Counted from the stretch's first letter, positions 10,737 to 25,588 are shown. The stretch: 64,000 nucleotides of DNA from a virus (IMGVR_UViG_3300022907_000007:1-64000), one strand, 5' to 3'. Numbers and translations: made by a program. The notes: generated by a model from the sequence alone, not told the origin.

Positions 10737-12922
10737 TGGCAAAGCCAATCATTATTGAAGTAGCGGATGCGTGTAATACAAATGTTAATTCGGCTTTAGA
10801 TTTAATTGACAATACAGATACGTTACTGAGCGAGAAAGCGTTAGGTGTTGCTATTCGCAAAGGGCTGAACAAGGCTACTCAGCCTACACGATTTAGGGAT
10901 ATGTTTCTTGAAGGCGTAATCAACGGTTACCTTTCAGGCTTTGGTACTCCTATTGCAAACGCTATCTCTATTGGTGTTCAAAACTTTACAGCACCAACTC
11001 TTGAAGCTATTGGTGCATTGACTGATACGTTGCGTGTAACTAACAGAGCACGTAATGCGGCAGGAGAATTACTTAAACCTAATCGTGAACTACGTGATGC
11101 TGTTGCTATGTTTGAAGCGGCAATGGAGGGGTTTGGTGCGGACATTATGTTCCTCAAGCAAGGATGGAAGAGTGGTTATCCTCTTGATGTAAACAGGTCA
11201 TCTGCATCTCTTGCACGTCAACTAGGTGTCAGTACAGCAGAAGCGCGTAAGGTAATTATCAAAGAGATTGCCGCAACTAAAGCGGCAAAAGCATTTGCTG
11301 AACCAGACAACACATCCACAATGGATCAATTAACTAAAGGCTTCACTGCTCAAATGCAGAAGGAAGGGTTAAACCCTACTGAGTTTGAAGCGTATATGGA
11401 TGAAGCCTATGATTATATCTCAGGTCATATTCCATCTAAGTTTGGTGGCAAGATTATCCGTTGGCCTACTCGCGCAACAGTTGCAATTGATGAGTATGGT
11501 AAGGCACGTTTTCGTAGACAGAAGATTGCACAGATGGCATCTGTCAAGGCGCGTGAGGATGAAGCAAAAGGACTTGGATCATACCGTGATCTGTATAACC
11601 AGTATCGTAAGGACTCATTGAGATCAGTCGATGAAGTTAAGGCTGATGAGATTGAAGAAGTCTTTGGCCGCATGAAGATGGATATTGGTAAAGTCTTTGG
11701 TCAATCAGATGATGACATGACTCCATACGGTAGCATCAAAGAGTTTGCATTACGTCAGACGTTTCAGTCTCCCTTGTTCGGTGCGGCTAAAGCGGCACAG
11801 GATATTAGACGTGACCATGCATTCGTTGCTTACTTTGTACCGTTCATTAAGACACCATGGAACATCCTAAAAGAAGGTACATCATTTGTTCCTGGGCTAG
11901 GTTACGCATTACGTCCTGCTTATTTGAAGGGTGCAGTGCCTGTCAAGATGTCTAATGATGAGCTTATTCCTAGACAGATTCTAGGGGCTACAATGTTTGC
12001 AGGAGTCGGTGCTATGTTTGCTAGTGGTAATATCACTGGCTCTCCTAGAAATGCAGATGAAGCGCAAGCATGGAAGGATCAAGGCATTCAACCTTTCTCA
12101 ATTAAGATAGGGGATAGTTGGGTTTCGTATCAGCGGATTGAACCTATCGCTACAGTGCTTGGTCTTGCGGCTGACTTGTTACGTCTAACCGATGAGTATG
12201 TTCAGAACCCTGATCTTGATGCGTCATTCTTGGATGAAGCGGCAAAGCCTACACTTGTAGCAATCAAGGCAAACATCTTAAGTAAGTCATTCATGGAAGG
12301 GTTCTCAAATATCCTTGAGGTTATGTCAGACCCTGCTCGATATGCTGAATCATTCATGGCATCTACATTACGTCCACTGTCTCCTGCAGTATTAAACATG
12401 GTTGCCCGCGCAACTGATCCATATGAACGTCTTGCAACAACACCCGTCGAGAAGTTACAACAACGCTTCCCGTTCCTGCGTCAAGACTTACCAGTGGAGT
12501 ACGGTGCAATTGGAGGTCCGCGTGAGACTAACTTTACACAGGCAGTTACTGGCTTTGGGATTACATCAGGGCCAGAGACAATGCTACAACAAGAGCTTGC
12601 TGATCTGAACTATACAAAGGGGCGTGTAGGAGATACCATTATGCGCGTTGGTTTAACAACAGCACAGCTTGGTGAGTTCCGTATGATGTCTGCTGAGATG
12701 CTGACTCCTATACTAGATCGCTTTATTAACTCAGCGACATACAGGAATGCAACTAATTCTAGACGTAAGGTACTACTTGATAAGATTACAGGACAAGTGC
12801 AGAACGCAGTGCGTAGGAAATACTTTGCACAGTTGCGGAAGCAAGACCCAGAGGTTGCACGTAAGTTCTACAATCAGGAGATCTTGAAGAGAGGACTAGA
12901 GGAACAAGTACCACTCCGCTAG
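10730..12922 (+). CDS. Large internal virion protein
   Basis: PFIKTPWNI, GIQPFSIKIGDSWVSYQRIEP motifs typical of large podoviral ejection proteins; last gene of late arm. Confidence 0.6.
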   Translation: MLMAKPIIIEVADACNTNVNSALDLIDNTDTLLSEKALGVAIRKGLNKATQPTRFRDMFLEGVINGYLSGFGTPIANAISIGVQNFTAPTLEAIGALTDTLRVTNRARNAAGELLKPNRELRDAVAMFEAAMEGFGADIMFLKQGWKSGYPLDVNRSSASLARQLGVSTAEARKVIIKEIAATKAAKAFAEPDNTSTMDQLTKGFTAQMQKEGLNPTEFEAYMDEAYDYISGHIPSKFGGKIIRWPTRATVAIDEYGKARFRRQKIAQMASVKAREDEAKGLGSYRDLYNQYRKDSLRSVDEVKADEIEEVFGRMKMDIGKVFGQSDDDMTPYGSIKEFALRQTFQSPLFGAAKAAQDIRRDHAFVAYFVPFIKTPWNILKEGTSFVPGLGYALRPAYLKGAVPVKMSNDELIPRQILGATMFAGVGAMFASGNITGSPRNADEAQAWKDQGIQPFSIKIGDSWVSYQRIEPIATVLGLAADLLRLTDEYVQNPDLDASFLDEAAKPTLVAIKANILSKSFMEGFSNILEVMSDPARYAESFMASTLRPLSPAVLNMVARATDPYERLATTPVEKLQQRFPFLRQDLPVEYGAIGGPRETNFTQAVTGFGITSGPETMLQQELADLNYTKGRVGDTIMRVGLTTAQLGEFRMMSAEMLTPILDRFINSATYRNATNSRRKVLLDKITGQVQNAVRRKYFAQLRKQDPEVARKFYNQEILKRGLEEQVPLR

Positions 12923-12938
12923 GTTAACTTGGTTAACC
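12922..12938. repeat. GGTTAAC-N3-GTTAACC motif copy 1
   Basis: GGTTAACTTGGTTAACC at the convergence of the two arms. Confidence 0.9.
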
Positions 12939-12941
12939 TCT

Positions 12942-12966
12942 AAAAAGAACCCCGCCGAAGCGGGGC
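12942..12966 (-). terminator. Rho-independent terminator of the early/replication arm
   Basis: CCCCGC-CGAA-GCGGGG hairpin (UUCG loop on minus strand) with A-tract on plus strand. Confidence 0.8.
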
Positions 12967-12986
12967 AAGTTCCACTGGAGGGTGGT

Positions 12987-13184
12987 TCAGTCGTCAACAA
13001 GTCCGTAGACACTGCCGACCATAATCTTTACAAAAGGTATATTGAAGATGTATCCATCAAAGAAGTAGATAGTTGCGTCTTCTTCTGATTCTCCATGCTG
13101 ACGACCGTACACAGGCTGTGCTTCCACAGACTCAACAGACAGTCCAAAGACGTGCCAAAAACTAAACTGTACTACCATCCCCAA
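12987..13184 (-). CDS. Hypothetical protein
   Basis: 65-aa ORF overlapping nrdB end. Confidence 0.5.
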   Translation of the reverse strand: MGMVVQFSFWHVFGLSVESVEAQPVYGRQHGESEEDATIYFFDGYIFNIPFVKIMVGSVYGLVDD

Positions 13185-14125
13185 TCATCTCCATCTAATC
13201 CATGTGCATTGTAATCAGTCACTCGCTTCTCAAAGAAGTTACTCATAGAGCTACCTCCAAGAATCTCCTCCATCCACGGTAGAGGGTTCTCCTTAACCTT
13301 CCAGTTTGTCTTGAGACCAAGTTGCAGTAGTCGTCTGTCTGCGAGATAACGAATGTACTGCTTGACATCTGCCGACGACAGACCTTCCAAGTCACCCATC
13401 TCATACGCAAGATCAATAACCTTGTCTTCAAGTTTGACTGCAGTACGGAACATCTCGTAGATATCTTTCTTGAAATCGTCGTTAACGATTCGTGGATGTT
13501 CATTACAATACTCCCTGAATAACTTAGCCATCCCCTCTGCGTGTTGTGACTCATCACGTACTGACCACTCAACAACAGTACACATACCCGGCATCTTACC
13601 ATAGCGTTGATAGTTAAGTAGCATCGCAAATGCTGAGAACAAACTCATACCTTCATTCAACACTGAGCGTGCAATTGCAAGGGCTGTACCGCTTATAGAA
13701 GTTACGTCTAATCCGGACATGAACTCCAGTTTTGCAGACATTTGCTCATACTCTAAGAACGCTGTGAACTCCTCTTCCGGAAGTCCGAGAGTGTCATTGA
13801 GTAAGGCATATGCTCGTTGATGGATGAACTCACGAGAAGCAAAGGCTGTGAGCATGGCTCTAATCTCATTGTTCTTGAACTTGGGAATATAATACTCAAG
13901 ATAGTTTGTTCCAACCGCCACGTCTGTCTGCGTAAATAACCGCAAGATCTGGGTGATATGGTTCTTCTCGCTCTCCGATAGTGCGCCTGACTTCCAGTGT
14001 GATACATCTGTTTGTAACTCTAACTCATCCTCAATCCAGTGGATACGCTCATGCTCTGTGGCATACGTAACAGCCCAAGGGTAGTTGAATGGTTTATAAC
14101 TTTTGCTCTGTTCCTGCAAGCTCAT
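13172..14125 (-). CDS. nrdB: Ribonucleotide reductase class Ia beta subunit
   Basis: Di-iron ligand motifs TQTD, EFIHQRAY, EGMSLFSAF, RDESQH; NFFEKRVTDY C-terminus. Confidence 0.95.
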   Translation of the reverse strand: MSLQEQSKSYKPFNYPWAVTYATEHERIHWIEDELELQTDVSHWKSGALSESEKNHITQILRLFTQTDVAVGTNYLEYYIPKFKNNEIRAMLTAFASREFIHQRAYALLNDTLGLPEEEFTAFLEYEQMSAKLEFMSGLDVTSISGTALAIARSVLNEGMSLFSAFAMLLNYQRYGKMPGMCTVVEWSVRDESQHAEGMAKLFREYCNEHPRIVNDDFKKDIYEMFRTAVKLEDKVIDLAYEMGDLEGLSSADVKQYIRYLADRRLLQLGLKTNWKVKENPLPWMEEILGGSSMSNFFEKRVTDYNAHGLDGDDWGW

Positions 14126-14258
14126 ATAGTTGTCTCTCCAGTGTGTCCAGTTTATTGGACAAGTCTATGATTGTGTCGTATGCGTCATTTAATAATTGTT
14201 TATTGAAAGGGTCTATGTCTTTGACCAGTTCAATTCTCTCTAGTATATTGGTTTGCAT
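14094..14258 (-). CDS. Small coiled-coil hypothetical protein (54 aa, not in ORF track)
   Basis: Read by eye: MQTNILERIELVKDID...GTEQKL*, fills the nrdA-nrdB gap, GGGGA RBS. Confidence 0.55.
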   Translation of the reverse strand: MQTNILERIELVKDIDPFNKQLLNDAYDTIIDLSNKLDTLERQLYELAGTEQKL

Positions 14259-14264
14259 AGTCCC

Positions 14265-16022
14265 CTATCCCTGACAACTCACACAGACATCATCGTCTTC
14301 AAAGTCTTTCAACGCATTACGGTCCACTTTAGTCCCAACCTTCTCCGCTGTAACACCTGCAGTCGTGCGTAAATAATATAATCCTTTAAGCCCTTCCTTC
14401 CACGCCTTGAGGTGTACCTGATTGACAATAGCCTTGTCAGTACCCGATGGAAAGAACACGTTAACACTCTGCCCTTGACATATAAACTCTTGTCTTTTAG
14501 CTGAGTGTTCGACAACCCACCCCTGATCGAGTTCAAATGCTGTCTTAAATGTAGCCTTCTCGTCGTCGGATAGGAACTCCAAGTGCTGTACAGAGCCTTC
14601 ATTCTCAAGAATACTTTGCCATATCTTCTTGGTGTTCTTTCCTTTGTCATCTAAAAGTTCCTCCAAGTACGGATTGCGAACAGTATGACTCCCGGCACGA
14701 GTACGATGGACAAAGCAGTTGCTAAGACGTGGTTCAATGCTAGCAGAGCACCCACATAGGATACTAGAATTAGCGTTAGGAGCAATAGCCAACAGATGCA
14801 TATTTCTAATACCATAACCCACCCCATCAGGACACTCACCACGTCCCACAGCGAGCGAGTACGTGGCCTCAAGTGCTTGGGATTTGATGTCCTTGAAGAG
14901 GTTGTAGTTTTCACTCGCCGCTTGCCATGACTCCCAAGCTATGCCTTTGCCTTGGAGGTAGCCGTGGAAGCCCATTGCTCCAAGACCGACTGAGCGTTCT
15001 CTGTAAGCTGAGTAGACAGCTTTTGATAGTTCTTCTGGTGCGTTGTCAATAAAGAATTGAAGGACGTTGTCCAAGAATCTGATAAGGTCTCCAACCATGC
15101 CGCTTGATTTCCAGTCATCGTATCGCTCAAGGTTGACTGAGGAGAGGCAACAGACTGCTGTGCGTTCTTCACTTGTTGCGAGATGGATTTCGTTGCAGAG
15201 GTTACTGCCATTAATTGACAGTCCAAGTTTTCTTTGAGCTTCCGGTAAACCTCTTCTGGCTGTGTCGATAAAGTTAAGGTAAGGACTGCCAGTTCTGAAG
15301 CGAGCTTCAAGTATTCGTTGCCAAAGTTTACGAGCTTGGATTGTATCTCTAACAATTCCTGTGTTGGGATCAACAAGGTTCCATTCTGTTCCATTGATTA
15401 CACACTCCATAAAATCATCTGTGATATTCACAGCATTAAAAAGATTAAAACATTTGCGGTTGATGTCACCACCAGTCGCTACTTTAAAGTTGATGAACTC
15501 CTCGATATCAGGATGGCTTACGTCTAGGTACGCCGCGTAGCTTCCCTTCCGTGTCTTCCCCTGTTTGTACGCTGTCATCTGTGCGTCCACTACTTTCATG
15601 AACGGTATCGGTCCCGGTGCTTTGTCGGAGATCCCTCTCACGTCTGACCAATGCCCACCCACACCTCCGCCCTTTACGGAAAGCCATGCTACTTCACCAT
15701 TGTGTTCAATAAGGCTGTCAAGAGAGTCAGCCACATAAGTAAGGAAGCAACTAATAGGCAAGCCACTAATCCTTCCGTTCGGTTCTGGGGCATTAGATAA
15801 GACAGGCGACGCAAACATGAACCAACCCTTTGAGGCATAGTCATAAATACGTTGTGCCAAATCCAGATCCCCATCGCAGTAAGCCACTGCCGCGCGAGCA
15901 AACGCCTGCTGAGGAGACTGCTCATGAGCAAGCATATAGTAATCTTGCATGAGCGTAGTCGCTTGGTCACTGAGGCGAAAGTCTCTTTCATAGTCAATCG
16001 TTATCCCAAGGTGTTGAGTCAT
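14265..16022 (-). CDS. nrdA: Ribonucleotide reductase class Ia alpha subunit (short, no obvious ATP cone)
   Basis: PISCFL, GGGVG, SNLCNEI, APNANSS, KGLYY and C-terminal CVSC; likely start MTQHL at 16022. Confidence 0.95.
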   Translation of the reverse strand: MTQHLGITIDYERDFRLSDQATTLMQDYYMLAHEQSPQQAFARAAVAYCDGDLDLAQRIYDYASKGWFMFASPVLSNAPEPNGRISGLPISCFLTYVADSLDSLIEHNGEVAWLSVKGGGVGGHWSDVRGISDKAPGPIPFMKVVDAQMTAYKQGKTRKGSYAAYLDVSHPDIEEFINFKVATGGDINRKCFNLFNAVNITDDFMECVINGTEWNLVDPNTGIVRDTIQARKLWQRILEARFRTGSPYLNFIDTARRGLPEAQRKLGLSINGSNLCNEIHLATSEERTAVCCLSSVNLERYDDWKSSGMVGDLIRFLDNVLQFFIDNAPEELSKAVYSAYRERSVGLGAMGFHGYLQGKGIAWESWQAASENYNLFKDIKSQALEATYSLAVGRGECPDGVGYGIRNMHLLAIAPNANSSILCGCSASIEPRLSNCFVHRTRAGSHTVRNPYLEELLDDKGKNTKKIWQSILENEGSVQHLEFLSDDEKATFKTAFELDQGWVVEHSAKRQEFICQGQSVNVFFPSGTDKAIVNQVHLKAWKEGLKGLYYLRTTAGVTAEKVGTKVDRNALKDFEDDDVCVSCQG

Positions 16023-16170
16023 CGAAATCATTCTCCAGTGTATCTTGTTTTTGTTCAATCAGGTCAGAGAACCTGTCAACCAAATCTTCAGAGGTGAGTT
16101 CTAATGTTTCCATCAGAGTCACCTCATCCAACTGCTTGAGTTTATCTTTAATATCTTCAAGCGTAAGCAT
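15994..16170 (-). CDS. Small acidic hypothetical protein (58 aa, not in ORF track)
   Basis: Read by eye: MLTLEDIKDKLKQLDEVTLMETLELTSEDLVDRF... Confidence 0.55.
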   Translation of the reverse strand: MLTLEDIKDKLKQLDEVTLMETLELTSEDLVDRFSDLIEQKQDTLENDFDDSTPWDND

Positions 16171-16175
16171 CTATT

Positions 16176-16406
16176 TTACCACACTTCTATGAGTTTGTCA
16201 AGGTAATGTTTGCACTTTTGTAAGTCTAACACGCCACCTTTATCCTGAAAGCGAGCAATGTATTTGATCACATTACCAATTAGGAAACCTTTGAACTGCT
16301 CTTCAGTCATCCATTCCTGCATAGCATCCCAAGGCTGTACCTTCTTGTCGGTGTAGTGTGTGCCACCAAGCTGATAGTTCCTAGCCATCTCATTTAAGTC
16401 AGGCAT
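16176..16406 (-). CDS. DUF3310-like protein (T7 gp1.7 nucleotide kinase-related)
   Basis: GGTHY...GFLIGNVIKYIAR..DKGG..DL.K..HYL. Confidence 0.8.
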   Translation of the reverse strand: MPDLNEMARNYQLGGTHYTDKKVQPWDAMQEWMTEEQFKGFLIGNVIKYIARFQDKGGVLDLQKCKHYLDKLIEVW

Positions 16407-17160
16407 AACGCTCCCTCAAATAATTGATAGACACTGGCATCTCATCGAACGTACCTTCCATTACCTCATGTAACATCCAGATACCAGACCATGATCCATT
16501 AGTCTGCGGGTTCAGATACTCTTCATCATGTTGATAATAGATACCTGCAAACAGACCAGTGATTCGTTTACCATCAGCGCGTCGAGCGTAAGAGATACTA
16601 CGATCCTGTACGTGACCCATCACACATGACATATGTTGCTTATTGATTAGTGCATTAGAAGAACTTACTGGTCTTCCCATAACACCACTAACAAAATAAT
16701 GGCTGTAACAGACACCATCAATAACCACAGGTTGTAAGAAATCATACACTTCCCATCCCATCTCTGTCAAGTACAGATCATCAAAGGACATGAGACCTTC
16801 TAGCTTAGGGTCTGCATTGATAGCGCGAGCAATACGATACTCATGGTTACCTAATGTAAATACTAAGCGAGGGTTCCACTGCTTGTCTTTGTTACGCTTG
16901 AGTCTATCTTGTTCCTTACGAATAGGATCAAGGAACTCTTGCATTGCCTCGACACCTGCATTGATGTCATTGATGTATCGCCTACCTTCAAACGATTTCT
17001 TACCGACATCATAGGTAGATAGACTAGGCATATCAAAATGATCACCGATGTGTACGATTACATCAGGCTTCTTCTCTACGGCATATTCTCCTGCCCAACG
17101 CAGATGGCTAGTCGGATGATCCGGCTTCACTTGCGTGTCAGGTATGACCATATGTTTCAT
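16399..17160 (-). CDS. Calcineurin-like metallophosphoesterase
   Basis: IPDTQ, GDHFD, GNHE, GHVQ motifs. Confidence 0.85.
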   Translation of the reverse strand: MKHMVIPDTQVKPDHPTSHLRWAGEYAVEKKPDVIVHIGDHFDMPSLSTYDVGKKSFEGRRYINDINAGVEAMQEFLDPIRKEQDRLKRNKDKQWNPRLVFTLGNHEYRIARAINADPKLEGLMSFDDLYLTEMGWEVYDFLQPVVIDGVCYSHYFVSGVMGRPVSSSNALINKQHMSCVMGHVQDRSISYARRADGKRITGLFAGIYYQHDEEYLNPQTNGSWSGIWMLHEVMEGTFDEMPVSINYLRERYA

Positions 17161-17161
17161 A

Positions 17162-17515
17162 TCAGTCTCCTGTGGTTAACTTGGTTAACCTCAACAATTC
17201 AAAAAAGTGTTCGGCATCTAAGACTGCGAGAGGTCTTCGTCTGTTTTCTTTAACGATGACAAGTGGCTGTGCATCACCTCGATTGTTGCACTGGTCAACA
17301 AAACGATAGACTCCAACTCTCGCAAGGCTTTTGCATTCGACATCATACGTGAAAGACTTGCGAGCCAGAGGGCTAAGTTGAACATCACTGCCACTAACAC
17401 CCATACTGGTTGATCTAACATCATCACTCTCCAGATGCGGGAACGTCTGTAGTATCTGTTCCGCTGTCCATTGTTGTAGTTTCCTTCCCTTTGCTTTCGC
17501 GCTCTGTGTCTTCAC
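17162..17515 (-). CDS. PD-(D/E)XK endonuclease, putative Holliday junction resolvase
   Basis: SAKAKGRKLQQW...GSDV...VECK; probable GTG start 17515. Confidence 0.7.
   Translation of the reverse strand: MKTQSAKAKGRKLQQWTAEQILQTFPHLESDDVRSTSMGVSGSDVQLSPLARKSFTYDVECKSLARVGVYRFVDQCNNRGDAQPLVIVKENRRRPLAVLDAEHFFELLRLTKLTTGD
17174..17190. repeat. GGTTAAC-N3-GTTAACC motif copy 2
   Basis: GGTTAACTTGGTTAACC, encodes LTKLT. Confidence 0.9.
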
Positions 17516-18595: not shown

Positions 18596-18624
18596 ACTTT
18601 TCTCCTACGGAAGTGAGTCTATAT

Positions 18625-18653: not shown

Positions 18654-20274
18654 ACCAAGTCTTACCAATTTTAGACTCGGCATCTACTGGGCATCGAAAG
18701 CCCAAGGTAAGCCCTGCTTGTGAGGCAGAGTCGCACATGATCTGTGCAACCTCTTCACCATACTTCTCCTCTGTTTCAATTTGAATTTCATCGTGTACAA
18801 ATGCAACCTGTCGCACAGGTAAGCAAAGTCGCTTAAACTTTTGGTGTGCTTCAATACACCACTGCTTTGCAATGATAGCCCCACAACCTTGAAGGAGGCT
18901 GTTGAGTGCGGCGTGCTCAGATCTAACAATGATCCTTCTACCATCCAACCCCGGTACGTACCCTTTGCTCGCCACTTTCTTAACTTTTTCCATAAGTCTT
19001 GATAACGCAGGGGTGTTAGCATAAAAGCGCGACAAGACCTCTTGCCCCTGACGCGCACCTCCCCCGACAATACTACCAATCTTTGCGGGTCCCGCGCCGT
19101 AAAGGGTTGCATAGATGAGAGTCTTAGCCTGCGGTCTCGTAATGCCTGCGGCATCTGCGTTCTTCTGATGGATATCTCCATTCAATAACTCCTCTGTCCA
19201 CTCATCATCCTGCATATAATGGGCAAGACATCTCAACTCGATCCCGCTTAAGTCCGTGCCGCATAAGACATGACCATCATCAACAGTCCACAGACCACGA
19301 CACTCAGGTCCATACTCACTGTTGACACTGGGGATTTGTCCCATGTTTGGTTTTTGGTGGGTCATACGTCCAGTAACAGCACCATTAGTAATCACCCTAC
19401 CATGTACCCTGCCGTCATCCTTGAGGTTATCAATCCATGACTCAAGCAAACCGACACGCTTCTGTATCATCAGGTACTCAGCGATCAACTGCGCTTCAGG
19501 CAGATCAATAGCCTTGAGTGTACCCTCATCAACTATGATAGTACCTTTCTCAGTCTTCTTAGTAAACTTAACACCACGCTCCTGAAGACGCTGTGCGATC
19601 TGTTGTCTTGACCCCACATTGAATACGGTAACCCCATCTTTGAGACGCTTGCCTGTCTTCTCTGACCAACGCTCTTCCACAATCGGAGGAAATATATTTT
19701 GCAAGTGATCAGTAATATAAGCCATTCGATCTTTAAGTTGAGCCAACAAAGTGATAGCTTCTTTCTCGTTGAGTTTGAATCCATTGTCCTCTTGCCTCTT
19801 CATAATAAAAGCGATGCTGTGTTCCAGATCAATAGACACACTGTAGTCTTCTAGTTCTTTGCACAATTGTTTGTACAACTTGACTGTTAAGTTCACGTCT
19901 TGAGAACAATACTCAACCATCTGTTCAGTAAGACCGCCATTGAAATCAGTGAAGTCCTGTTTGTAATCACCAAGACGTTCGCCCCATGCACGTAGACTAT
20001 GGCCACCCTCCAGTTGTGGATTCCATAGCCTTGACATGACCAGAGTATCACGAACTTTGGAGAGGGGAATCTTTACTCCCCAAATCCGTGACAACACTGG
20101 CCCGTCAAACCCAATGATGTTGTGACCTACTACTACATCAGCCTTGTCCACTAGCTCTTGGACTTTCTGTGCGTTTGTGTATACAGATGTATAACTGTCG
20201 TAGTTACATCCACAGCACCAGATTCTGTCGTGCGTTAGGTTGGTCTCAATGTCGAGTACCAATACCTTCATCAT
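18640..20274 (-). CDS. polA: DNA polymerase family A with 3'-5' exonuclease
   Basis: LDIET, HNIIGFD, DLSGIELR, AKTLIYATLYG (Tyr at the E. coli 762-equivalent, as in T7), VHDEIQ. Confidence 0.95.
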   Translation of the reverse strand: MMKVLVLDIETNLTHDRIWCCGCNYDSYTSVYTNAQKVQELVDKADVVVGHNIIGFDGPVLSRIWGVKIPLSKVRDTLVMSRLWNPQLEGGHSLRAWGERLGDYKQDFTDFNGGLTEQMVEYCSQDVNLTVKLYKQLCKELEDYSVSIDLEHSIAFIMKRQEDNGFKLNEKEAITLLAQLKDRMAYITDHLQNIFPPIVEERWSEKTGKRLKDGVTVFNVGSRQQIAQRLQERGVKFTKKTEKGTIIVDEGTLKAIDLPEAQLIAEYLMIQKRVGLLESWIDNLKDDGRVHGRVITNGAVTGRMTHQKPNMGQIPSVNSEYGPECRGLWTVDDGHVLCGTDLSGIELRCLAHYMQDDEWTEELLNGDIHQKNADAAGITRPQAKTLIYATLYGAGPAKIGSIVGGGARQGQEVLSRFYANTPALSRLMEKVKKVASKGYVPGLDGRRIIVRSEHAALNSLLQGCGAIIAKQWCIEAHQKFKRLCLPVRQVAFVHDEIQIETEEKYGEEVAQIMCDSASQAGLTLGFRCPVDAESKIGKTWFDTH

Positions 20275-21881
20275 AACTCCTCATCTTTTACCTCAGTCAT
20301 TCTACCTGTTGCGTGAGTATAAAGCAAGCTACAAGCAGGACCAGTGATACCACAGAAACGATTCTTCAGTACCCGCACGCGAGTGGTATTACGCTCAGTG
20401 ATATCCTCAGCCTGACCGTTACGCTCCAGACCAATCACCATGTCAGATAGCTGTGCGATAGAACCAGAGCCACGCAACTGTGCCAGTGATGTAGCTGTCC
20501 CTTCCTCATGTCCCTTACCTTCAGGACGCTTGAGGTGTGAGACACAGATAAGACATATACCTGTCTCTTGCACCAACATCCGGAGCTTGGTCATGATCTC
20601 ATCTATCGCTTTACGTTCGTCACCACTGGCTTGAGCAGACACCACGATACTAATATGATCGAGAAATATATAACTACACCCCAATCCTTTAGCAAGATAT
20701 CGGACACGATTAATAATGTTATCGACGCTAGTGCTACCGAAATGGTCAAAGAGATATATGCGATCAGTCCCAAGAGTTTTGCTAAAAGCATCACGCTTCT
20801 CCTCTTCAGTGGCATCTGAGTCTGGTAGATGCAGTGGTTGATTTGCCGCAAGCGACATGATAGACAGCGCAGACTTCCGCACTGACTCCTCTAAGAACAT
20901 CAGACCTACGTTGTCCTCTGTCTTATTCAAGATGTGCCATACAATCTCTCGCACAAACTGTGACTTACCTAGTCCAGATCCTGCAGTGATAGTCACTAGC
21001 TCACCCTTACGTACACCATAGGTTAACTTGGTTAACCCTGCGAATGGGTAATCACAGTCCGATGGGGCAACAGGTTTCATTACCTCCTCAAGCAGAGTAC
21101 CACCCGCAACAATACCATCAGGTACGTGCTGTTCAGAAGACCACCACTTGTCAGTGAACTCCTTCATCTTCTTGTTCTGAAGATAGTCGCACGCATCCTT
21201 CATACCATCGAGGTGCATAAAGACTTTGGCTTTACTACCAAAGATCTCTGCCGCCTGTGATGCCGCACGCTTGCCTGCATCGTCACCGTCAAAGCAGATC
21301 ACGACGTTGTCAAAGGAATCTAACCACTCATACTGAGCGCGGATGTCTTTGGCGGCAGAGGCCGCACCGTTCCGTACCGAAACCACCGGATACTTAGACC
21401 CTAGCATTTGGTATGCCGCCATCGCATCGAACTCTCCCTCAACAATGGTGACGTACTTACCACCCTTGCTGAATAGATTCTGTCCGTACAGCACAGCACT
21501 CTTCCAGTCACCTGCGATTGAGAACTGCTTGTCCTCTGCACGTTCCTTCTGTGCCACGAGTTGACCACTCGCATTACAGTAGCCAAAGAATGTAGTGCCG
21601 TCAGCGACAGAGCACTTGTATGCCTTGGCGGTATCGCTACTGATACCACGGTCAATAATTGTACGATACCCTGCGTCTTGGAACTTAGACAGTTGAGTAT
21701 CAGTCAGTTGTTTAGCTTCCACCTGTACCTCCCTATGGGTTGGTGTGTAATCGTCGCTCTGTGAGCCTGTGTATGCCTCGCAGACAAAGCAAAAGGATGA
21801 ACCGTCATCGTTGTATGACAGCCCATCGCTTGAGCCACAGTCACTGCATGGTTGGTGCGTCTTGACAAATGGCACGCTCAT
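20271..21881 (-). CDS. T7 gp4-like DNA primase-helicase
   Basis: CxxC...CxxC zinc finger, TOPRIM EGEFDA/FDGD, Walker A AGSGLGKS, LDHIS, LRGSGSIAQLSD. Confidence 0.95.
   Translation of the reverse strand: MSVPFVKTHQPCSDCGSSDGLSYNDDGSSFCFVCEAYTGSQSDDYTPTHREVQVEAKQLTDTQLSKFQDAGYRTIIDRGISSDTAKAYKCSVADGTTFFGYCNASGQLVAQKERAEDKQFSIAGDWKSAVLYGQNLFSKGGKYVTIVEGEFDAMAAYQMLGSKYPVVSVRNGAASAAKDIRAQYEWLDSFDNVVICFDGDDAGKRAASQAAEIFGSKAKVFMHLDGMKDACDYLQNKKMKEFTDKWWSSEQHVPDGIVAGGTLLEEVMKPVAPSDCDYPFAGLTKLTYGVRKGELVTITAGSGLGKSQFVREIVWHILNKTEDNVGLMFLEESVRKSALSIMSLAANQPLHLPDSDATEEEKRDAFSKTLGTDRIYLFDHFGSTSVDNIINRVRYLAKGLGCSYIFLDHISIVVSAQASGDERKAIDEIMTKLRMLVQETGICLICVSHLKRPEGKGHEEGTATSLAQLRGSGSIAQLSDMVIGLERNGQAEDITERNTTRVRVLKNRFCGITGPACSLLYTHATGRMTEVKDEEL
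21021..21037. repeat. GGTTAAC-N3-GTTAACC motif copy 3
   Basis: GGTTAACTTGGTTAACC inside the helicase domain (GLTKLT). Confidence 0.9.
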
Positions 21882-22080
21882 TCTCCTTGTAGAAATCTGC
21901 CATCAATGATAGCGCATATGACTCCTTGTTGTCAGCGCAGTAGTCTGCAAGAGAAGTCAGCACTCGATGTAATCCATAACGATAAATCAAATCGCAAGTG
22001 TCAACAAGAACTTGATGTTGAATCATCTCTTCCATCGCAAGAGTAAAATCGTCAACAGGAATATTTAAATCTTTATACAC
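21841..22080 (-). CDS. Hypothetical protein
   Basis: AGGAG RBS, GTG start, overlaps primase start. Confidence 0.55.
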   Translation of the reverse strand: MYKDLNIPVDDFTLAMEEMIQHQVLVDTCDLIYRYGLHRVLTSLADYCADNKESYALSLMADFYKENERAICQDAPTMQ

Positions 22081-22158
22081 TTCAGCACTCCTAAGTAGAT
22101 GTAAGAGATAACTAAGATAATAATTATCTCTTGCATATGTCTTTAAAGTAATATTATA

Positions 22159-22356
22159 TCACGAATCAGGACGAAAGTCTGCTTGAAAAAGATCATCATC
22201 ATCTTCATGCATTAGATCCATTCGCTCGACAGCCTTTACCTCATCCTTAACAAAGGTATAACAATGATTGCATAAGTCTATGAATTCATTGGTCTCAGCA
22301 CTCTTGCGTGTGGACTCAAAGTCTGTCAGTTCTACGTTACACGATAGGCATCTCAC
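22159..22356 (-). CDS. Small Zn-binding protein
   Basis: CLSC...LCNHC; AAGGAG RBS before GTG at 22356. Confidence 0.6.
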   Translation of the reverse strand: MRCLSCNVELTDFESTRKSAETNEFIDLCNHCYTFVKDEVKAVERMDLMHEDDDDLFQADFRPDS

Positions 22357-22417
22357 AACTGTGCGCTCCTTATTAAGTACAGTAAGATGACTAGTATAAC
22401 ACACCCGAATAAAAATC

Positions 22418-22651
22418 TCAAACGTGACTCCACGCCCCATCACGGGCATTGACAATTTCCCACACACGTTGCTTGCTGATGCCAAACTTCTCACCGATAG
22501 CCCGCTGAGATAGGCTGTCAAGTTTTTCTTTGGCGCGTATGCGCTCTTGATTCAACTCAAGAATCAATCGAACATCGCTCTCATCAATCTTTGCGTTGTG
22601 ATGCTTCGATCCGCGTGGTGCATAAGGACGATCTGTATCATAATTAGCCAT
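22418..22651 (-). CDS. Helix-turn-helix DNA-binding protein
   Basis: LSQRAIGEKFGISKQRVWEIV HTH; GSKHHNAK N-terminal motif. Confidence 0.75.
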   Translation of the reverse strand: MANYDTDRPYAPRGSKHHNAKIDESDVRLILELNQERIRAKEKLDSLSQRAIGEKFGISKQRVWEIVNARDGAWSHV

Positions 22652-22685
22652 TGTGTTCTACCTTGTATATACAAAAAAAATACGA

Positions 22686-22702
22686 GGTTAACTTGGTTAA
22701 CC
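22686..22702. repeat. GGTTAAC-N3-GTTAACC motif copy 4
   Basis: Intergenic, just upstream of the HTH gene. Confidence 0.9.
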
Positions 22703-22711
22703 CCGCGAGTG

Positions 22712-22999
22712 TTATTCGTAACTTACCTCTTCCATTTTCATTGATGGTCCTTCATCCACAACATAACGCCAGATCTCTCTGTCTGTTCCACACATCCACT
22801 TGACTTCCTCGATGAACCCTTGTGGCAAACTCTGGCTGTAGTCTTCCAACTCAACAGACTGCAAGTGCCATGAGTCAGGGATATCATAACCCTTCTCAAA
22901 CTTCCACACGACATTGAGACAGAACTCATTGTCCTCTGGGTCATACCACCAATGAGTACCGTAATACTCATGACCATCTTTGTATAAGCTAGTTGACAT
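22712..22999 (-). CDS. Hypothetical early protein
   Basis: 95-aa ORF in tightly packed operon. Confidence 0.55.
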   Translation of the reverse strand: MSTSLYKDGHEYYGTHWWYDPEDNEFCLNVVWKFEKGYDIPDSWHLQSVELEDYSQSLPQGFIEEVKWMCGTDREIWRYVVDEGPSMKMEEVSYE

Positions 23000-23342
23000 A
23001 CATCACCCCATACATTCTACCTACTTCATCACGGGTCATAAACTTGTGGTCAATGTCCGCAACATCCTCTGCATCAAGCCATGCATCCTTGGAGTTACCT
23101 CCCGCATCAATACCAAGGAACAACACACGACCTGCATACGGATCAGGGTATATATCAGGGGCATACCAGAACTCAGACTCCTCATGTAACCCATTGTCAT
23201 TGACATAGATTGCATCACCGCCCTCATCATAACCACCACTGCAGAAGATATCACACTGCAAATGCTTACTGATATCTGTGTAGTCATTCACTTCTACATT
23301 CTCAATCGTCTTGAGATATGGATCTACTAATACTGCTTTCAT
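22989..23342 (-). CDS. Hypothetical early protein (DUF3846-like)
   Basis: LVDP...IYVNDNGL...YAGRVLFLG.D..G. Confidence 0.55.
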   Translation of the reverse strand: MKAVLVDPYLKTIENVEVNDYTDISKHLQCDIFCSGGYDEGGDAIYVNDNGLHEESEFWYAPDIYPDPYAGRVLFLGIDAGGNSKDAWLDAEDVADIDHKFMTRDEVGRMYGVMYVN

Positions 23343-23551
23343 TACTTCACCTCTGCTATCAAACCGTCACTCATTGTGACCTGTGCAAAAAACTCACGAC
23401 CTTTGTTAGTCGTAAGCTGTGGTCTGTTAGAGCCTGTCAACACACCATTAGGTCTGTACTCTGGACCAAAGTAGGATGTCTCAGTGTAGTTAAGACGCTG
23501 ACCAATATGCTCACGCATTTCTTTCTTGCTACTGTAATTGAATATCATCAT
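23342..23551 (-). CDS. Hypothetical early protein
   Basis: YSSKKEMREHIGQRL.Y.ETSYFGPEY...REFFAQVTM.DGLI; start uncertain. Confidence 0.55.
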   Translation of the reverse strand: MMIFNYSSKKEMREHIGQRLNYTETSYFGPEYRPNGVLTGSNRPQLTTNKGREFFAQVTMSDGLIAEVK

Positions 23552-23619
23552 GGTTATGTACCTATATGTCATACACTTTTAAAGACAAGCAGTTTTACAT
23601 CATGCTCAGGATGGGAGGA

Positions 23620-24249
23620 TTAACCGATCAGCGCGGCAACGTGCATCTGAGATACTTCATTGCCATCTGCAAAACGCCCACGGTTACATGGCTTGTAAAC
23701 TAATTGCTCACACCATGAGTCCCACAGTTTCTCTGTACTACGATTGACCTTGCACAGGCTGACGTAGTTCATCAGCTTAGCAAACTTAGTCTGCGGCTTG
23801 GTGATGTCAGAGAATGTAAAGTCTTTGGGATCTACCTTGCGGAATCGTCGCAAGTTATGCACATCAAAACAACCAACACGACCGAACATCATCTGCATGA
23901 CAAAGCCTGCCTTGACAGCGCGGAGTCCAGGCACTTCGACAAGACGCAACAACATCGCCGCATCTTTCTGATCCTGAGTACCACCAAACTCTTTCTTCGG
24001 TGACATCCACAACTGCATGAGATCATCATACAATTCCTTGCCGTGTTCTTGCAGATAATTGTGAGTGTCAATCTTGAATCCCCACACATACTTAGAGTTA
24101 ACTTGGTTAACCCTGTAGTCGTCCATCTGACGCTTCATCGTATGGAATGGTGTCTTCACAGACAGCACAACAAACATAATACCCATGCTCATTTGCTCAT
24201 GGTTCTCTTGCATATACGCATTGATAATTGGATTATGATTCTTGAACAT
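23620..24249 (-). CDS. HhH-GPD superfamily DNA glycosylase-like protein (Ogg2-like)
   Basis: LVEVPGLRAVKAGF HhH motif with Lys, followed by CFDVHNLR (catalytic Asp position). Confidence 0.6.
   Translation of the reverse strand: MFKNHNPIINAYMQENHEQMSMGIMFVVLSVKTPFHTMKRQMDDYRVNQVNSKYVWGFKIDTHNYLQEHGKELYDDLMQLWMSPKKEFGGTQDQKDAAMLLRLVEVPGLRAVKAGFVMQMMFGRVGCFDVHNLRRFRKVDPKDFTFSDITKPQTKFAKLMNYVSLCKVNRSTEKLWDSWCEQLVYKPCNRGRFADGNEVSQMHVAALIG
24096..24112. repeat. GGTTAAC-N3-GTTAACC motif copy 5
   Basis: AGTTAACTTGGTTAACC, encodes VNQVN. Confidence 0.9.
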
Positions 24250-24346
24250 TATTTTAACCCTCTCAAGAAATTAGAAATAACTTGGGACAGCAAATGCGCC
24301 GCCCCAATAAAGGCCAACAGGCCAAGCCACAGTACAAAGAACTCCA

Positions 24347-24640
24347 TCAGTCTTGAAACTCCGGAGTGTCTATCCCTTCATATGCTTCCATGATCTGACG
24401 ACAATGAGTGTGAAAGAACTCTTGCATTCTTGTCTCAAGATCACGAGCTTGATCATACGATAACTCACGCGCAACATGACGTATCGCCCAATAAGCACCA
24501 CCAATCTTGCAACTCACGCGAGGCTCGAAAGTCTTCGGTTCGTTGTAAGCCACAGCATATTTATCAACGTCTTCAGGTCTTGTAATATCCTCAACAACTT
24601 CGCTGATGAACGCACCAAGTAATGTTTTAACTGTAATCAT
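24347..24640 (-). CDS. Hypothetical early protein
   Basis: GGAGG RBS before ATG 24640. Confidence 0.6.
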   Translation of the reverse strand: MITVKTLLGAFISEVVEDITRPEDVDKYAVAYNEPKTFEPRVSCKIGGAYWAIRHVARELSYDQARDLETRMQEFFHTHCRQIMEAYEGIDTPEFQD

Positions 24641-24656
24641 TTTGCAACCCTCCACA

Positions 24657-24673
24657 GGTTAACCAAGTTAACT
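24657..24673. repeat. GGTTAAC-N3-GTTAACC motif copy 6 (spacer inverted)
   Basis: GGTTAACCAAGTTAACT, intergenic. Confidence 0.9.
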
Positions 24674-24769
24674 TCACAGCCGGAATGCATACTGTCGCCC
24701 GACTGTGTAAGCACAGTATAACACAGCAGACCCAGTAAATCCGGCGTAAAAAAATTTATTTTAGACAAA

Positions 24770-24792
24770 GAAAAAGGGGCTTTCGCCCCTCT
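24770..24792 (-). terminator. Rho-independent terminator after first early gene
   Basis: Minus strand AGGGGC-GAAA-GCCCCTTTTT. Confidence 0.8.
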
Positions 24793-24797
24793 CTCGA

Positions 24798-25337
24798 TTA
24801 TGCCGCTTTCGGTGCGGCGGTCAGTTCCTTGAATGCTTTCTGGATATCGGCTTGGCTGTATCCCTCCTCGAATGCTTTCTCGATCAGTGCATTCATCTTC
24901 TCGCCGAGATCCCATTTCTTTGGTTGCGCCTCATCCCCTTCGGCTTCGCGGCAGAGTCCGGCCAGTGCGTTGATATTGGTGGCGCCCTTGAATTCTTGAA
25001 CGACCATTGTCTTACCTTCGCCATTTCCCCATAGTTCGGGTTGCTCCTGTTGCTTTTTGCGGATGCCTAGTGCAAAATCTAGGATGCATTTTCTCGCTGA
25101 TTTCAGCGCCTTGATGCTTTTCTTATCCCGTCCGGACGCGAGTAACATGGAATCAAAATCAGCGCAATAGGCCTTAATGATATCTTTGTCGAGGTTAACC
25201 GAGTTAACCATGTCAATCATGTTATCCACTTGCTTACCATCAGTAGAGTTTACAATCAACTCCACATCAGTATTCAAGAACTTCGCGTAAGACGCACCTT
25301 TCCCATCGAATTGAATCGCTTCGTTTTTAGTAGTCAT
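24798..25337 (-). CDS. First early gene, unknown function
   Basis: 179 aa, GGAGG RBS, own promoter and terminator. Confidence 0.7.
   Translation of the reverse strand: MTTKNEAIQFDGKGASYAKFLNTDVELIVNSTDGKQVDNMIDMVNSVNLDKDIIKAYCADFDSMLLASGRDKKSIKALKSARKCILDFALGIRKKQQEQPELWGNGEGKTMVVQEFKGATNINALAGLCREAEGDEAQPKKWDLGEKMNALIEKAFEEGYSQADIQKAFKELTAAPKAA
25193..25209. repeat. GGTTAAC-N3-GTTAACC motif copy 7 (spacer inverted)
   Basis: GGTTAACCGAGTTAACC, encodes VNSVN. Confidence 0.9.
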
Positions 25338-25400
25338 GAGACCCTCCAGTCTATATATTTACTATTTAATTTATGATCATTTGTTATTGACCATATGTAC

Positions 25401-25428
25401 ATATTACCAGAGTCAGGGTAGATAGCAA
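25401..25428 (-). promoter_or_regulatory. Putative sigma70 promoter of first early gene
   Basis: Minus strand TTGCTA-N16-TAATAT with TGn extension. Confidence 0.5.
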
Positions 25429-25433
25429 GCAAT

Positions 25434-25450
25434 TGTTAACCGAGTTAACC
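25434..25450. repeat. GGTTAAC-N3-GTTAACC motif copy 8 (spacer inverted)
   Basis: TGTTAACCGAGTTAACC immediately upstream of the putative -35. Confidence 0.85.
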
Positions 25451-25580: not shown

Positions 25581-25588
25581 CTTTTCCA

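What the first reader, a model, noticed from the sequence alone, without database searches (positions are those of the whole stretch)
12922..25450. Eight copies of a 17-bp double palindrome (GGTTAAC-TYG-GTTAACC) mark only the early arm of phage A
Seen: copies at 12922, 17174, 21021, 22686, 24096, 24657, 25193 and 25434. None was noticed in the late arm or in phage B. Two self-palindromic GTTAAC hexamers sit 3 nt apart, so the site is both a direct and an inverted repeat. Four copies lie inside genes in different frames (LTKLT twice, VNQVN, VNSVN), so selection is on the DNA rather than the protein. Spacing shrinks toward the divergent non-coding region (about 4.3, 3.8, 1.7, 1.4, 0.56, 0.54, 0.24 kb). 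The outer copies bracket the arm exactly: one at the convergent terminator, one beside the first promoter. The asymmetric spacer flips orientation between 24112 and 24657. It matches no operator I recognise. Inference: a dispersed binding-site array. Candidate roles are a ratchet or protection for first-injected DNA, parS-like loading sites, arm-wide silencing by the HTH protein at 22418..22651 (copy 4 lies just upstream of it), or enhancers for the adjacent sigma54 sites.
Basis: partly seen in the sequence, partly recalled or inferred. Interest (0 to 1): 0.85.

Follow-up and report, generated by a model that had tools for sequence, protein, structure and literature searches.

The report
Palindromic operator array, phage replication arm
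A marine/salt-marsh phage carries eight exact copies of a 17-bp DNA palindrome only in its DNA-replication gene block. Related phages keep such sites at the same places but with different palindromes. This points to docking sites for a fast-evolving phage regulator, a kind of array already seen in other phages whose function is still untested.

Summary
Eight exact GTTAAC-N3-GTTAAC sites (0.01 expected) all lie in the minus-strand replication arm (12.9-25.5 kb). No copy, even with 2 mismatches, occurs elsewhere in the window, and the whole 74.7-kb record holds no further exact copy.

The record is phage A (about 38 kb, no RNA polymerase found) joined to a circular phage B.

In IMG/VR relatives, sites recur at the same positions: beside the arm promoter, inside the first gene, just upstream of ribosome-binding sites, and just after the terminal terminator. 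The palindrome itself differs by lineage (GTTAAC x2, TTAGTCATGACTAA, TTTGTA..TACAAA, and others). In-gene copies were created by amino-acid-changing substitutions.

Arms are invariant, the centre is free, its orientation is not conserved, and the relatives' RNA hairpins are weak. This favours recognition of double-stranded DNA by a dimeric protein.

Motif type tracks the hypervariable first arm gene (24798-25337, orphan all-alpha protein) perfectly. It tracks DNA polymerase and primase less well. The small HTH (22418-22651) is a second candidate.

Best reading (0.45): a stoperator-like operator/roadblock array controlling host-RNAP transcription of the arm.

Closest known: the Cluster O mycobacteriophage 17-bp 7-3-7 repeat and Cluster A stoperators. 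This scan has noted similar arrays in other phages.

Mechanism and binder are inferred, not shown.

The parts
12922..12938 (.). Copy 1, perfect 17-mer. It follows the stop codon of the last late gene and lies 3 nt beyond the T-run of the arm's terminal terminator.
   Evidence: same placement in relatives L007, L020, L028, L056 and, with another motif, L011
12942..12966 (-). Intrinsic terminator that ends the replication arm (GC stem plus T-run on the minus strand).
17174..17190 (.). Copy 2, perfect 17-mer, 3 nt upstream of the SD of the phosphoesterase gene (ATG at 17160). It is a roughly 21-nt insertion relative to relatives with other motif types and extends the RusA-like C-terminus.
21021..21037 (.). 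Copy 3, perfect 17-mer in the primase-helicase linker. It was written by an Asn-to-Thr change in the conserved G[LV]N.LTYG segment.
22673..22706 (-). Copy 4 (22686-22702) forms the core of an 11-bp-stem hairpin followed by T8, terminator-like at -14.2 kcal/mol. It lies 36 nt upstream of the HTH gene.
24096..24112 (.). Copy 5, inside the 209-aa gene (VNQVN). It was written by substitutions in a variable loop (DYRANG[LK]D in relatives without the site).
24657..24673 (.). Copy 6, 3-4 nt upstream of the SD of the second arm gene (ATG at 24640), about 35-50 nt downstream of the predicted promoter P2.
25193..25209 (.). Copy 7, perfect 17-mer inside the first arm gene (codons 44-48, VNSVN). It is present at the same codons in all type-A relatives.
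25434..25450 (.). Copy 8, in the divergent non-coding region, 6 nt upstream of the -35 of the arm promoter and about 110-135 nt downstream of the sigma54-type sites.
24798..25337 (-). First arm gene (179 aa). It belongs to an orphan all-alpha family that is hypervariable between lineages. Best candidate for the site-binding specificity factor.
22418..22651 (-). 77-aa HTH protein (long helix plus helix-turn-helix). Second candidate binder.
25401..25428 (-). Sigma70-like arm promoter P_E (TTGCTA-16-TAATAT). It is positionally conserved in type-A relatives. Predicted only.
25564..25604 (-). Two tandem sigma54-type -24/-12 elements (TGGCAC-N5-TTGCA and TGGCAT-N5-TTGCT) pointing into the arm.
24770..24795 (-). 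Intrinsic terminator directly after the first gene.
24702..24723 (-). Predicted extended -10 promoter P2 (TGTTATACT). It overlaps a 6-bp-stem hairpin that covaries in relatives.

Best explanation
The eight palindromes are most likely double-stranded-DNA docking sites (operators) for a dimeric, phage-encoded regulator. Its specificity changes quickly between related phages.

Phage A appears to have no RNA polymerase of its own, so host polymerase would transcribe the replication arm. The predicted promoters are sigma70-like P_E, internal promoters such as P2, and upstream sigma54-type sites.

The sites lie in or beside every transcription segment: next to P_E, in the first gene, in the leader after P2, before several ribosome-binding sites, inside the primase-helicase gene, and just outside the terminal terminator. 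A protein bound there would therefore regulate or block transcription through the whole arm and insulate it from the converging late operon. This resembles Cluster A 'stoperators', but with a symmetric site and in an apparently lytic phage.

The most likely binder is the product of the first arm gene (24798-25337). The 77-aa HTH (22418-22651) is the alternative.

Shown: the array, its family-wide positional conservation, selection at the DNA level, and co-segregation with the first gene.
Inferred: protein binding, the identity of the binder, and the sign of regulation.
For: - **Non-random and arm-restricted.** 8 sites against 0.01 expected, none elsewhere even with 2 mismatches. By my arithmetic, (12.5/38.3)^8 is about 1e-4 for all eight falling in the arm of phage A.
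- **Relatives carry arrays at the same positions but with lineage-specific palindromes** (PolA 70-88% identical). These are GTTAAC-N3-GTTAAC with other spacers, TTAGTCATGACTAA, TTAATCATGATTAA, TTAAGCAT(G/A)CTTAA and TTTGTA-N2-3-TACAAA. All copies within one genome are of one type.
- **Sites are written into genes at the cost of amino-acid changes.** N to T in the conserved G[LV]N.LTYG of the primase-helicase; DVNxVN after its zinc ribbon; VN[QG]VN in the 209-aa protein; a 21-nt insert that lengthens the RusA-like tail.
- **The pattern fits a dimer reading two major grooves.** The arms are invariant, the central 3 bp vary, and spacer orientation differs at orthologous sites of close relatives. 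The half-sites are 10 bp apart. RNA hairpins of the equivalent motifs are marginal: -5.4 kcal/mol for type A but only -1.2 to -2.3 for types B, D and E. A nearby hairpin at P2 does show compensatory changes, whereas the motif stems never vary.
- **Motif type tracks the first gene.** It maps with the minimum 5 changes on the first-gene tree, against 8 on the PolA and primase trees.
- **The 179-aa family occurs only in GTTAAC-type loci.** It is in all 12 such loci that cover the region. It has type-specific residues (R82, C84, insert 91-103) on its most conserved basic helix.
- **In lineages B-E the palindrome overlaps the SD or start of this first gene**, an autoregulation-like geometry.
- **No host origin.** The 17-mer occurs at chance level and never as arrays in 185,579 species genomes.
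Against: - No binding has been shown.
- The 179-aa protein has no recognisable DNA-binding fold. Foldseek and VIA-align gave only generic helical bundles, with Z of 6.4 or less. Pfam gave only sub-threshold integrase-SAM hints. Its pI is 5.4. Its co-segregation with motif type rests on few independent events and could reflect linkage to the neighbouring promoter region.
- The HTH-77 recognition helix differs between the A1 and A2 sublineages although both use GTTAAC arms. The gene is absent from L020-23, L052 and L090.
- In lineage E the gap between half-sites varies by 1 bp within one genome, which is awkward for a rigid dimer.
- Sites are enriched just upstream of SD plus start codon: 45-79% against a 17% background. 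They often follow terminators, which also fits RNA-level or promoter readings.
- The sign of regulation cannot be derived from sequence.
Confidence: 0.45

Rival explanations
1. RNA-level element. The transcribed palindrome forms a hairpin just upstream of ribosome-binding sites. A phage protein, for example the unstable-looking first gene product, binds it. The protein would then act either as a processive antiterminator (lambda N / nut-like) at the arm's terminators or as a translational repressor of replication genes (T4 RegA-like).
For: - Sites are strongly enriched 0-6 nt upstream of SD plus start, or overlap the start codon in lineage B.
- Several sites follow intrinsic terminators directly.
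- The first gene is followed by a terminator and ends in a conserved ..KAA tail.
- The type-A hairpin is moderately stable at -5.4 kcal/mol, and copy 4 is a full terminator hairpin.
- With the sigma54-type promoters upstream, even copy 8 could be transcribed.
Against: - Hairpins of the equivalent motifs in lineages B, D and E are marginal, at -1.2 to -2.3 kcal/mol.
- Stems are sequence-invariant with no compensatory changes, while loops vary freely within a genome (CAA, UUG, UCG; GGC, GCC, GAC). This is the opposite of what known hairpin-binding proteins read.
- Copy 1 lies beyond the arm terminator.
- In-gene copies have no start codon after them.
Confidence: 0.2
2. Phage-specific promoters. 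The motif would be the core recognition element where host RNA polymerase, redirected by a phage factor such as the first gene product, starts transcripts just upstream of the SD. That would be an analogue of T7 class II or T4 middle promoters without a phage polymerase.
For: - The number, spacing and location match the T7 class II promoters (8-10 copies over 12 kb of DNA-metabolism genes, some inside genes; established knowledge of T7).
- TSS-compatible geometry, with the motif ending 14-17 nt before the ATG.
- In lineage E some sites sit directly between a terminator T-run and the next SD, with no other promoter-like sequence.
- Specificity is lineage-specific, as in the T7 group.
Against: - No RNA polymerase or sigma gene was found in phage A.
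- The site is symmetric and orientation-free.
- In the window a separate extended -10 promoter (P2) already lies between the terminator and copy 6, and perfect sigma70 promoters occur elsewhere in the arm without the motif.
- Copy 1 and the in-gene copies would start useless transcripts.
Confidence: 0.1
3. Recombination or mobility sequences. The short palindromes would mark module boundaries and promote exchange of gene cassettes between co-infecting relatives (PeSL-like), or would spread as REP-like insertions.
For: - Similarity between the window and relative L007 breaks at copy 8 and resumes exactly at copy 6, bracketing the hypervariable first-gene cassette, and ends about 30 nt before copy 1's centre.
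- Copy 2 is an insertion relative to other lineages.
- In Cluster O a gene is flanked by a 17-bp direct repeat (PMC4351075).
Against: - In-gene copies arose by point substitution in conserved codons, not by insertion.
- All copies in a genome are one type although the arm's genes are mosaic. This needs a trans-acting reader.
- Most breakpoints do not coincide with sites.
Confidence: 0.08
4. Sites for something other than a phage transcription regulator: enhancers for the sigma54-type promoters (host bEBP), parS-like loading sites, or pause/ratchet sites for DNA entry.
For: - The 7-3-7 dyad is the architecture of NtrC-type enhancers and is close to parS (established knowledge).
- Sigma54-type promoters are conserved 190-276 nt upstream of the first gene in lineages A, C and D.
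Against: - The nearest site lies downstream of the sigma54 elements, and the others are up to 12 kb away.
- Lineages B and E have arrays but no sigma54 elements.
- No AAA+ activator or ParB-like gene was found in phage A.
- No host genome carries arrays.
- Motif turnover between phages with 85% identical polymerases argues against a host reader.
Confidence: 0.07

Closest known systems
17-bp dyad repeat of Cluster O mycobacteriophages (TGTTCGG-N3-CCGAACA; Cresawn et al. 2015, PMC4351075, read)
   Same: Identical architecture: 7-bp inverted arms separated by 3 bp. The arms are invariant, the centre is variable, and there is no consistent orientation relative to transcription. Copies lie between genes, near 5' ends of genes and inside genes. 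Function and binder are unknown.
   Different: The sequence, host and phage type are unrelated. Cluster O has more than 30 copies spread over the whole genome. Here there are 8-10 copies confined to the replication arm, relatives carry different palindromes at the same positions, and a co-segregating candidate gene exists.
Operators/stoperators of Cluster A mycobacteriophages (L5 gp71-type repressor; PMC9283540 read; PMC6550527 listed)
   Same: Many copies of one short site lie at a promoter and in short intergenic spaces along transcription units. They are proposed to stop initiation and elongation. Site and protein specificities diversify between related phages.
   Different: Stoperators are asymmetric 13-mers bound by a monomer, and their orientation follows transcription. 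They belong to temperate phages and their immunity repressor. Here the site is symmetric and orientation-free, no integrase or lysogeny gene was found, and the candidate binder is unrelated.
T7 class II promoters (established knowledge, not tested here)
   Same: About ten identical short elements are dispersed through the DNA-metabolism genes of a T7-like replication module. Some lie inside genes, and they are lineage-specific in sequence.
   Different: T7 promoters are asymmetric and read by a phage RNA polymerase. No such polymerase is encoded in phage A.
Lambda N / nut (boxB) antitermination (established knowledge, not tested here)
   Same: The first gene of an early operon is followed by a terminator, and a lineage-specific hairpin-forming site lies in the leader.
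   Different: nut sites are few, act as RNA, and are read through their loops. Here the loops vary and the stems are invariant.

Membership tests
Cluster O-type 17-bp dyad repeat (a kind, not a homologous family) | 7-bp inverted arms separated by 3 bp, with invariant arms and a variable centre | tested here: met
   window; relatives; definition from PMC4351075
Cluster O-type 17-bp dyad repeat (a kind, not a homologous family) | More than 30 copies distributed over the whole genome | tested here: not met
   8 copies, all within 12.5 kb of the roughly 38-kb phage A
Cluster A stoperators | Asymmetric 13-mer whose orientation follows the direction of transcription | tested here: not met
   The site is a palindrome, and the orientation of its centre differs at orthologous sites. 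Definition from PMC9283540.
Cluster A stoperators | Sites at a promoter and in short intergenic spaces of transcription units | tested here: met
Cluster A stoperators | Cognate immunity repressor (HTH plus stoperator domain) of a temperate phage | tested here: inconclusive
   No integrase or repressor-like gene was found among the arm and structural genes annotated. The HTH-77 model gives only weak generic HTH matches; 7r6r ranks 11th at E=4.
N4-type virion-RNAP hairpin promoters | DNA hairpin with a 5-7 bp stem and 3-nt loop, read by a giant virion RNA polymerase (from memory) | tested here: not met
   The hairpin geometry fits. However, no ORF longer than 730 aa exists in the record, so there is no vRNAP.
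T7-type phage promoters | Single-subunit phage RNA polymerase encoded in the genome | tested here: not met
   No RNAP hit among the arm proteins and phage A structural proteins scanned
sigma54 enhancer (bEBP upstream activating sequences) | Dyad sites upstream of a -24/-12 promoter, with a cognate AAA+ activator | tested here: not met
   The nearest site is about 110-135 nt downstream of the sigma54-type elements. Lineages B and E have arrays without such elements. No AAA+ activator was found in phage A.
parS/ParB partition or loading sites | ParB-family protein encoded with the sites | tested here: not met
   No ParB-like hit in the Pfam or PHROG scans of the arm and structural genes. The fold search of the 179-aa protein was uninformative.

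The most novel reading that the evidence does not exclude
The hypervariable first gene of the replication arm may encode a new family of sequence-specific regulators. The family is orphan and all-alpha, with a conserved basic helix and a C-terminal ..KAA tail that may make it short-lived. It would co-diversify with a rewritable operator array. If so, closely related lytic phages of one habitat each carry a private 'address code' for switching their replication genes, or for silencing those of a competitor that shares the code.

That would be a lytic-phage counterpart of stoperator immunity. It would also be a natural series of matched protein/site specificities (at least five types).
Probability: 0.3. 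Interest if true: 0.75.

Novelty: new variant of a known kind. Interest (0 to 1): 0.55.

Why it matters
Dispersed perfect palindromes keep turning up in phage genomes, including Cluster O mycobacteriophages and several other windows of this scan. None of them has a known reader.

This family offers an unusually tractable case:
- a small genome and a short array;
- five or more motif types at conserved positions in otherwise 70-90% identical replication modules;
- in-gene sites whose creation can be traced codon by codon;
- one gene that changes in step with the motif.

If the first-gene product, or the HTH, binds the sites, this would give a matched set of natural protein/DNA specificities. 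It would also give a model for how polymerase-less T7-like marine phages time their replication genes. If not, it remains one more well-documented member of an unexplained class.

Tried and rejected
- **Close cultured relative.** Megablast of the arm against 50,697 phage records found nothing. The best PolA match is 47% identity to Pelagibacter phage HTVC103P. Its annotation lists no RNA polymerase.
- **N4-like reading (hairpin promoters plus virion RNAP).** Rejected: there is no giant ORF.
- **CtrA-box reading.** TTAA-N5-TTAA here, against the canonical TTAA-N7-TTAA as I remember it. The other lineages' motifs do not resemble it. Dropped.
- **Second small HTH family in relatives.** It gives sub-threshold GcrA/HTH_23 hits. 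Its recognition helix is nearly identical across motif types B-E and it is absent from the window, so it is not the specificity determinant.
- **Fold and family of the 179-aa protein.** Pfam, PHROGs, PDB sequence search, Foldseek, VIA-align and the protein atlas gave nothing above noise. A profile search of 1.8 billion representatives found only 46 stand-alone relatives and no fused forms.
- **Metatranscriptomes.** Six salt-marsh RNA runs hold 46-85% of the arm's sampled words. They are kept only as contigs, so no 5' ends, strand or level could be read. Contigs bridge copies 1, 2, 6 and 7. Uninformative.
- **Host genomes.** The exact 17-mer gave 51 stretches, all but one with a single copy, roughly the chance number (my estimate is about 70), with no arrays and no prophage relatives.
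- **Flank-extended stems.** Apart from the G/C that completes the 17-mer, only copy 4 has extra pairing (by inspection).

Full report
**The observation.** A scan for GTTAAC-N3-GTTAAC finds exactly the eight reported sites (12923 to 25449), against 0.01 expected. Extended to GGTTAAC-N3-GTTAACC, five are perfect and three miss one flank base. Allowing two mismatches adds no site anywhere in the window. The whole 74,742-bp record holds no further exact copy. Isolated GTTAAC hexamers elsewhere are at about chance frequency. The reported spacings, the TTG versus CAA/CGA centres and the four in-gene copies are all correct.

**What the surrounding DNA is.** The only minus-strand block of the record, 12987-25337, encodes:
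- both ribonucleotide reductase subunits;
- a DUF3310 protein;
- a phosphoesterase;
- a RusA-like resolvase;
- a 5'-3' exonuclease;
- a family A DNA polymerase;
- a T7-type primase-helicase;
- a set of small proteins that includes a 77-aa HTH.

It is therefore a replication and nucleotide-metabolism module.

To its right a lysozyme, terminase, portal, scaffold and capsid operon starts divergently. To its left tail and internal-virion genes converge on it.

The last 125 bp of the record repeat 38331-38455. The second half of the record has its own portal, scaffold, capsid and Sak genes. The record is thus a roughly 38-kb phage A joined to a circular 36.3-kb phage B, as another first-stage note (e1-6090541) suggested.

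No RNA polymerase, sigma factor, integrase or ParB-like gene was found in phage A. The nearest cultured relative by PolA is Pelagibacter phage HTVC103P at 47% identity. Near-identical DNA occurs in salt-marsh metagenomes and metatranscriptomes.

**Relatives.** Eighty IMG/VR loci encode a PolA 69-100% identical to the window's.
- Many carry the same double GTTAAC with 6-10 copies. The centres are CAA/TTG/TCG ('A1', as in the window) or GSC/GAC ('A2').
- Others have no GTTAAC pair but carry another palindrome several times: TTAGTCATGACTAA (B), TTAATCATGATTAA (C), TTAAGCAT(G/A)CTTAA (D) or TTTGTA-N2-3-TACAAA (E).

The positions are shared across types:
- in the divergent region beside the arm promoter;
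- at or in the first gene;
- a few nucleotides upstream of the Shine-Dalgarno sequence of several genes, for example the phosphoesterase gene at +3.1 kb from the PolA start in every type;
- before an internal SD plus GTG start just after the primase zinc ribbon;
- 0-5 nt after the T-run of the arm's terminal terminator.

An SD plus start codon follows within 32 nt at 45% (A), 70% (B) and 79% (E) of sites, against about 17% of random arm positions.

**Selection acts on the DNA.**
- In the primase-helicase, all relatives without a site read G[LV]N.LTYG. Relatives with the site read GLT[KA]LTYG, so a conserved Asn was changed to Thr to spell the motif.
- After the zinc ribbon, site-bearing phages read DVNxVNH where others read DD[YL]xxTH.
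- In the 209-aa protein, DYRANG[LK]D becomes DY[RK]VN[QG]VN.
- Copy 2 is a roughly 21-nt insertion that replaces the RusA-like C-terminus RNQK by RLTKLTTGD.

Within a genome all copies are of one type, even though the arm's genes are mosaic. On the PolA tree, type E (L012) groups with types A1 and A2 with 99% support.

**DNA or RNA?** The arms never vary and show no compensatory changes. The central 3 bp vary within a genome, and their orientation differs at orthologous sites of close relatives, for example TTG in the window against CAA in L086 at copy 6. The half-sites are one helical turn apart.

As RNA, the type-A hairpin is moderately stable (-5.4 kcal/mol). The functionally equivalent motifs of types B, D and E are marginal (-1.2 to -2.3). 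By contrast, a 6-bp hairpin at the predicted promoter P2 does covary between relatives (ACTGTG/CACAGT, ACTGAT/ATCAGT, ACTGGT/ACCAGT). Where structure matters in this region, the sequence drifts.

This pattern is what a dimeric double-strand-DNA binder produces. It is the reverse of what loop-reading RNA-binding proteins produce. The 1-bp variation in half-site spacing within type-E genomes is the main point against a rigid dimer.

**Local anatomy in the window.**
1. On the minus strand, two tandem sigma54-type elements lie at 25604-25564. One is a perfect TGGCAC-N5-TTGCA. They are conserved 190-276 nt upstream of the first gene in types A, C and D.
2. Copy 8 follows, then 6 nt later a positionally conserved sigma70-like promoter (25428-25401).
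3. The 179-aa first gene follows, with copy 7 at codons 44-48.
4. Next come a strong terminator (24795-24770), an A/T tract and an extended -10 promoter P2 (24723-24715).
5. Copy 6 sits 3-4 nt before the SD of the next gene.
6. Copy 4 is the core of an 11-bp-stem hairpin plus T8 (-14.2 kcal/mol), 36 nt before the HTH gene.
7. Copy 1 lies just outside the terminal terminator, directly after the stop codon of the converging late operon. That operon has no T-run terminator of its own in that direction.

Every copy therefore lies in or at the edge of a transcribed segment. Bound protein could act as an operator or roadblock for all of them.

**Who reads the sites?** Among arm proteins, only two have BLAST relatives exclusively in GTTAAC-type loci: the 179-aa first-gene product and the 77-aa HTH.

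*The 179-aa first-gene product.*
- Its family is present in all six A2 loci that cover the region.
- All six further loci retrieved with it carry the array.
- Its positional homologues in other types are strongly diverged but alignable. They share K79, K83, L86 and a ..KAA C-terminus.
- Motif type maps with the minimum of 5 changes on the first-gene tree, against 8 on the PolA and primase trees. Shuffled labels give 9 or more.
- Type-A proteins share R82, C84 and a 13-residue insert on or next to the conserved basic helix.
- Against it: the confident all-alpha model (pLDDT 83) matches no solved fold above helical-bundle noise. Pfam gives only sub-threshold integrase-SAM hints. The family is a small orphan of 46 representatives.

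*The 77-aa HTH.*
- It has a plausible DNA-binding fold of a long helix plus HTH, with weak matches to 434/P22/lambda repressors and sigma region 4.
- Its gene carries a site either 36 nt upstream or in codons 4-8 in seven phages.
- Against it: it is absent from L020-23, L052 and L090. Its recognition helix differs between A1 and A2, which share the GTTAAC arms.

I rank the first-gene product first and the HTH second.

**Comparison with known systems.** The architecture (7-3-7, invariant arms, free centre, no orientation rule, mixed intergenic and in-gene copies) is that of the unexplained Cluster O mycobacteriophage repeat (PMC4351075). The proposed working resembles Cluster A operators/stoperators (PMC9283540). 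The defining features of stoperators (asymmetric 13-mer, orientation dependence, temperate immunity repressor) are not met. The resemblance is therefore functional and does not indicate membership.

T7 class II promoters, N4 hairpin promoters, NtrC-type enhancers and parS share single features. Each fails on a defining component (see the membership table). Earlier notes of this scan describe comparable palindrome arrays in other uncultivated phages. The kind is recurrent, and its reader is unknown in all of them.

**Verdict.** The most likely explanation is a lineage-specific operator/roadblock array for a phage-encoded regulator of the replication arm (0.45). RNA-level (0.2) and promoter (0.1) readings are not excluded. 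It is a new variant of a known but unexplained kind. Its value lies in the natural series of switched specificities and in a testable candidate reader.

Noticed in passing
window 25564-25604 (minus strand); relatives L007, L017, L020, L024, L032, L037, L039, L047, L060, L086, L091: One to three tandem sigma54-type -24/-12 elements, some a perfect TGGCAC-N5-TTGCA, lie 190-276 nt upstream of the first arm gene. They occur in motif types A, C and D but not in B or E. No AAA+ activator is encoded in phage A. A host-sigma54-dependent early promoter in a lytic podovirus would be unusual.
   Followed up: partly
window 24702-24723 (minus strand) and the same place in L007, L020, L039, L086, L087, L090, L091: A predicted extended -10 promoter (TGnTATACT) lies after the first-gene terminator. 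It overlaps a 6-bp-stem hairpin that is kept by compensatory changes between relatives.
   Followed up: partly
primase-helicase gene, window about 21650-21700; L007, L020, L028, L035: A conserved in-frame SD (AGGGAGG) plus GTG/ATG lies just after the zinc ribbon, like the internal start of T7 gene 4B. In several relatives a palindrome sits directly before it; in the window it does not.
   Followed up: partly
window 38331-38455 = record 74618-74742: An exact 125-bp repeat shows the record to be phage A (1-38330, probably incomplete or permuted) joined to a circular 36,287-bp phage B with its own structural genes. This is probably an assembly join through shared tail-fibre DNA. CheckV's '100% complete' for the 74.7-kb record is therefore misleading.
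   Followed up: partly
first-gene proteins of all motif types (window 24798-25337; L012, L013, L017, L024, L032, L037, L054 etc.): Nearly all end in ..KAA, ..EAA or similar, despite otherwise very low identity. This could be a C-terminal degradation tag. Not tested.
   Followed up: no
relatives, between the orthologues of window 22712-22999 and 22159-22521: A variable slot holds zero to three small HTH genes. These are the HTH-77 family in long and short forms and a sub-threshold GcrA/HTH_23-like family of 82-105 aa. In L045/L046 the slot also holds a 206-aa protein of unknown function.
   Followed up: partly
window 18625-18653 (minus strand): A perfect sigma70 consensus promoter (TTGACA-17-TATAAT with TG) lies between PolA and the next gene, without a palindrome. 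In relative L007 a palindrome overlaps the equivalent -35 region.
   Followed up: no
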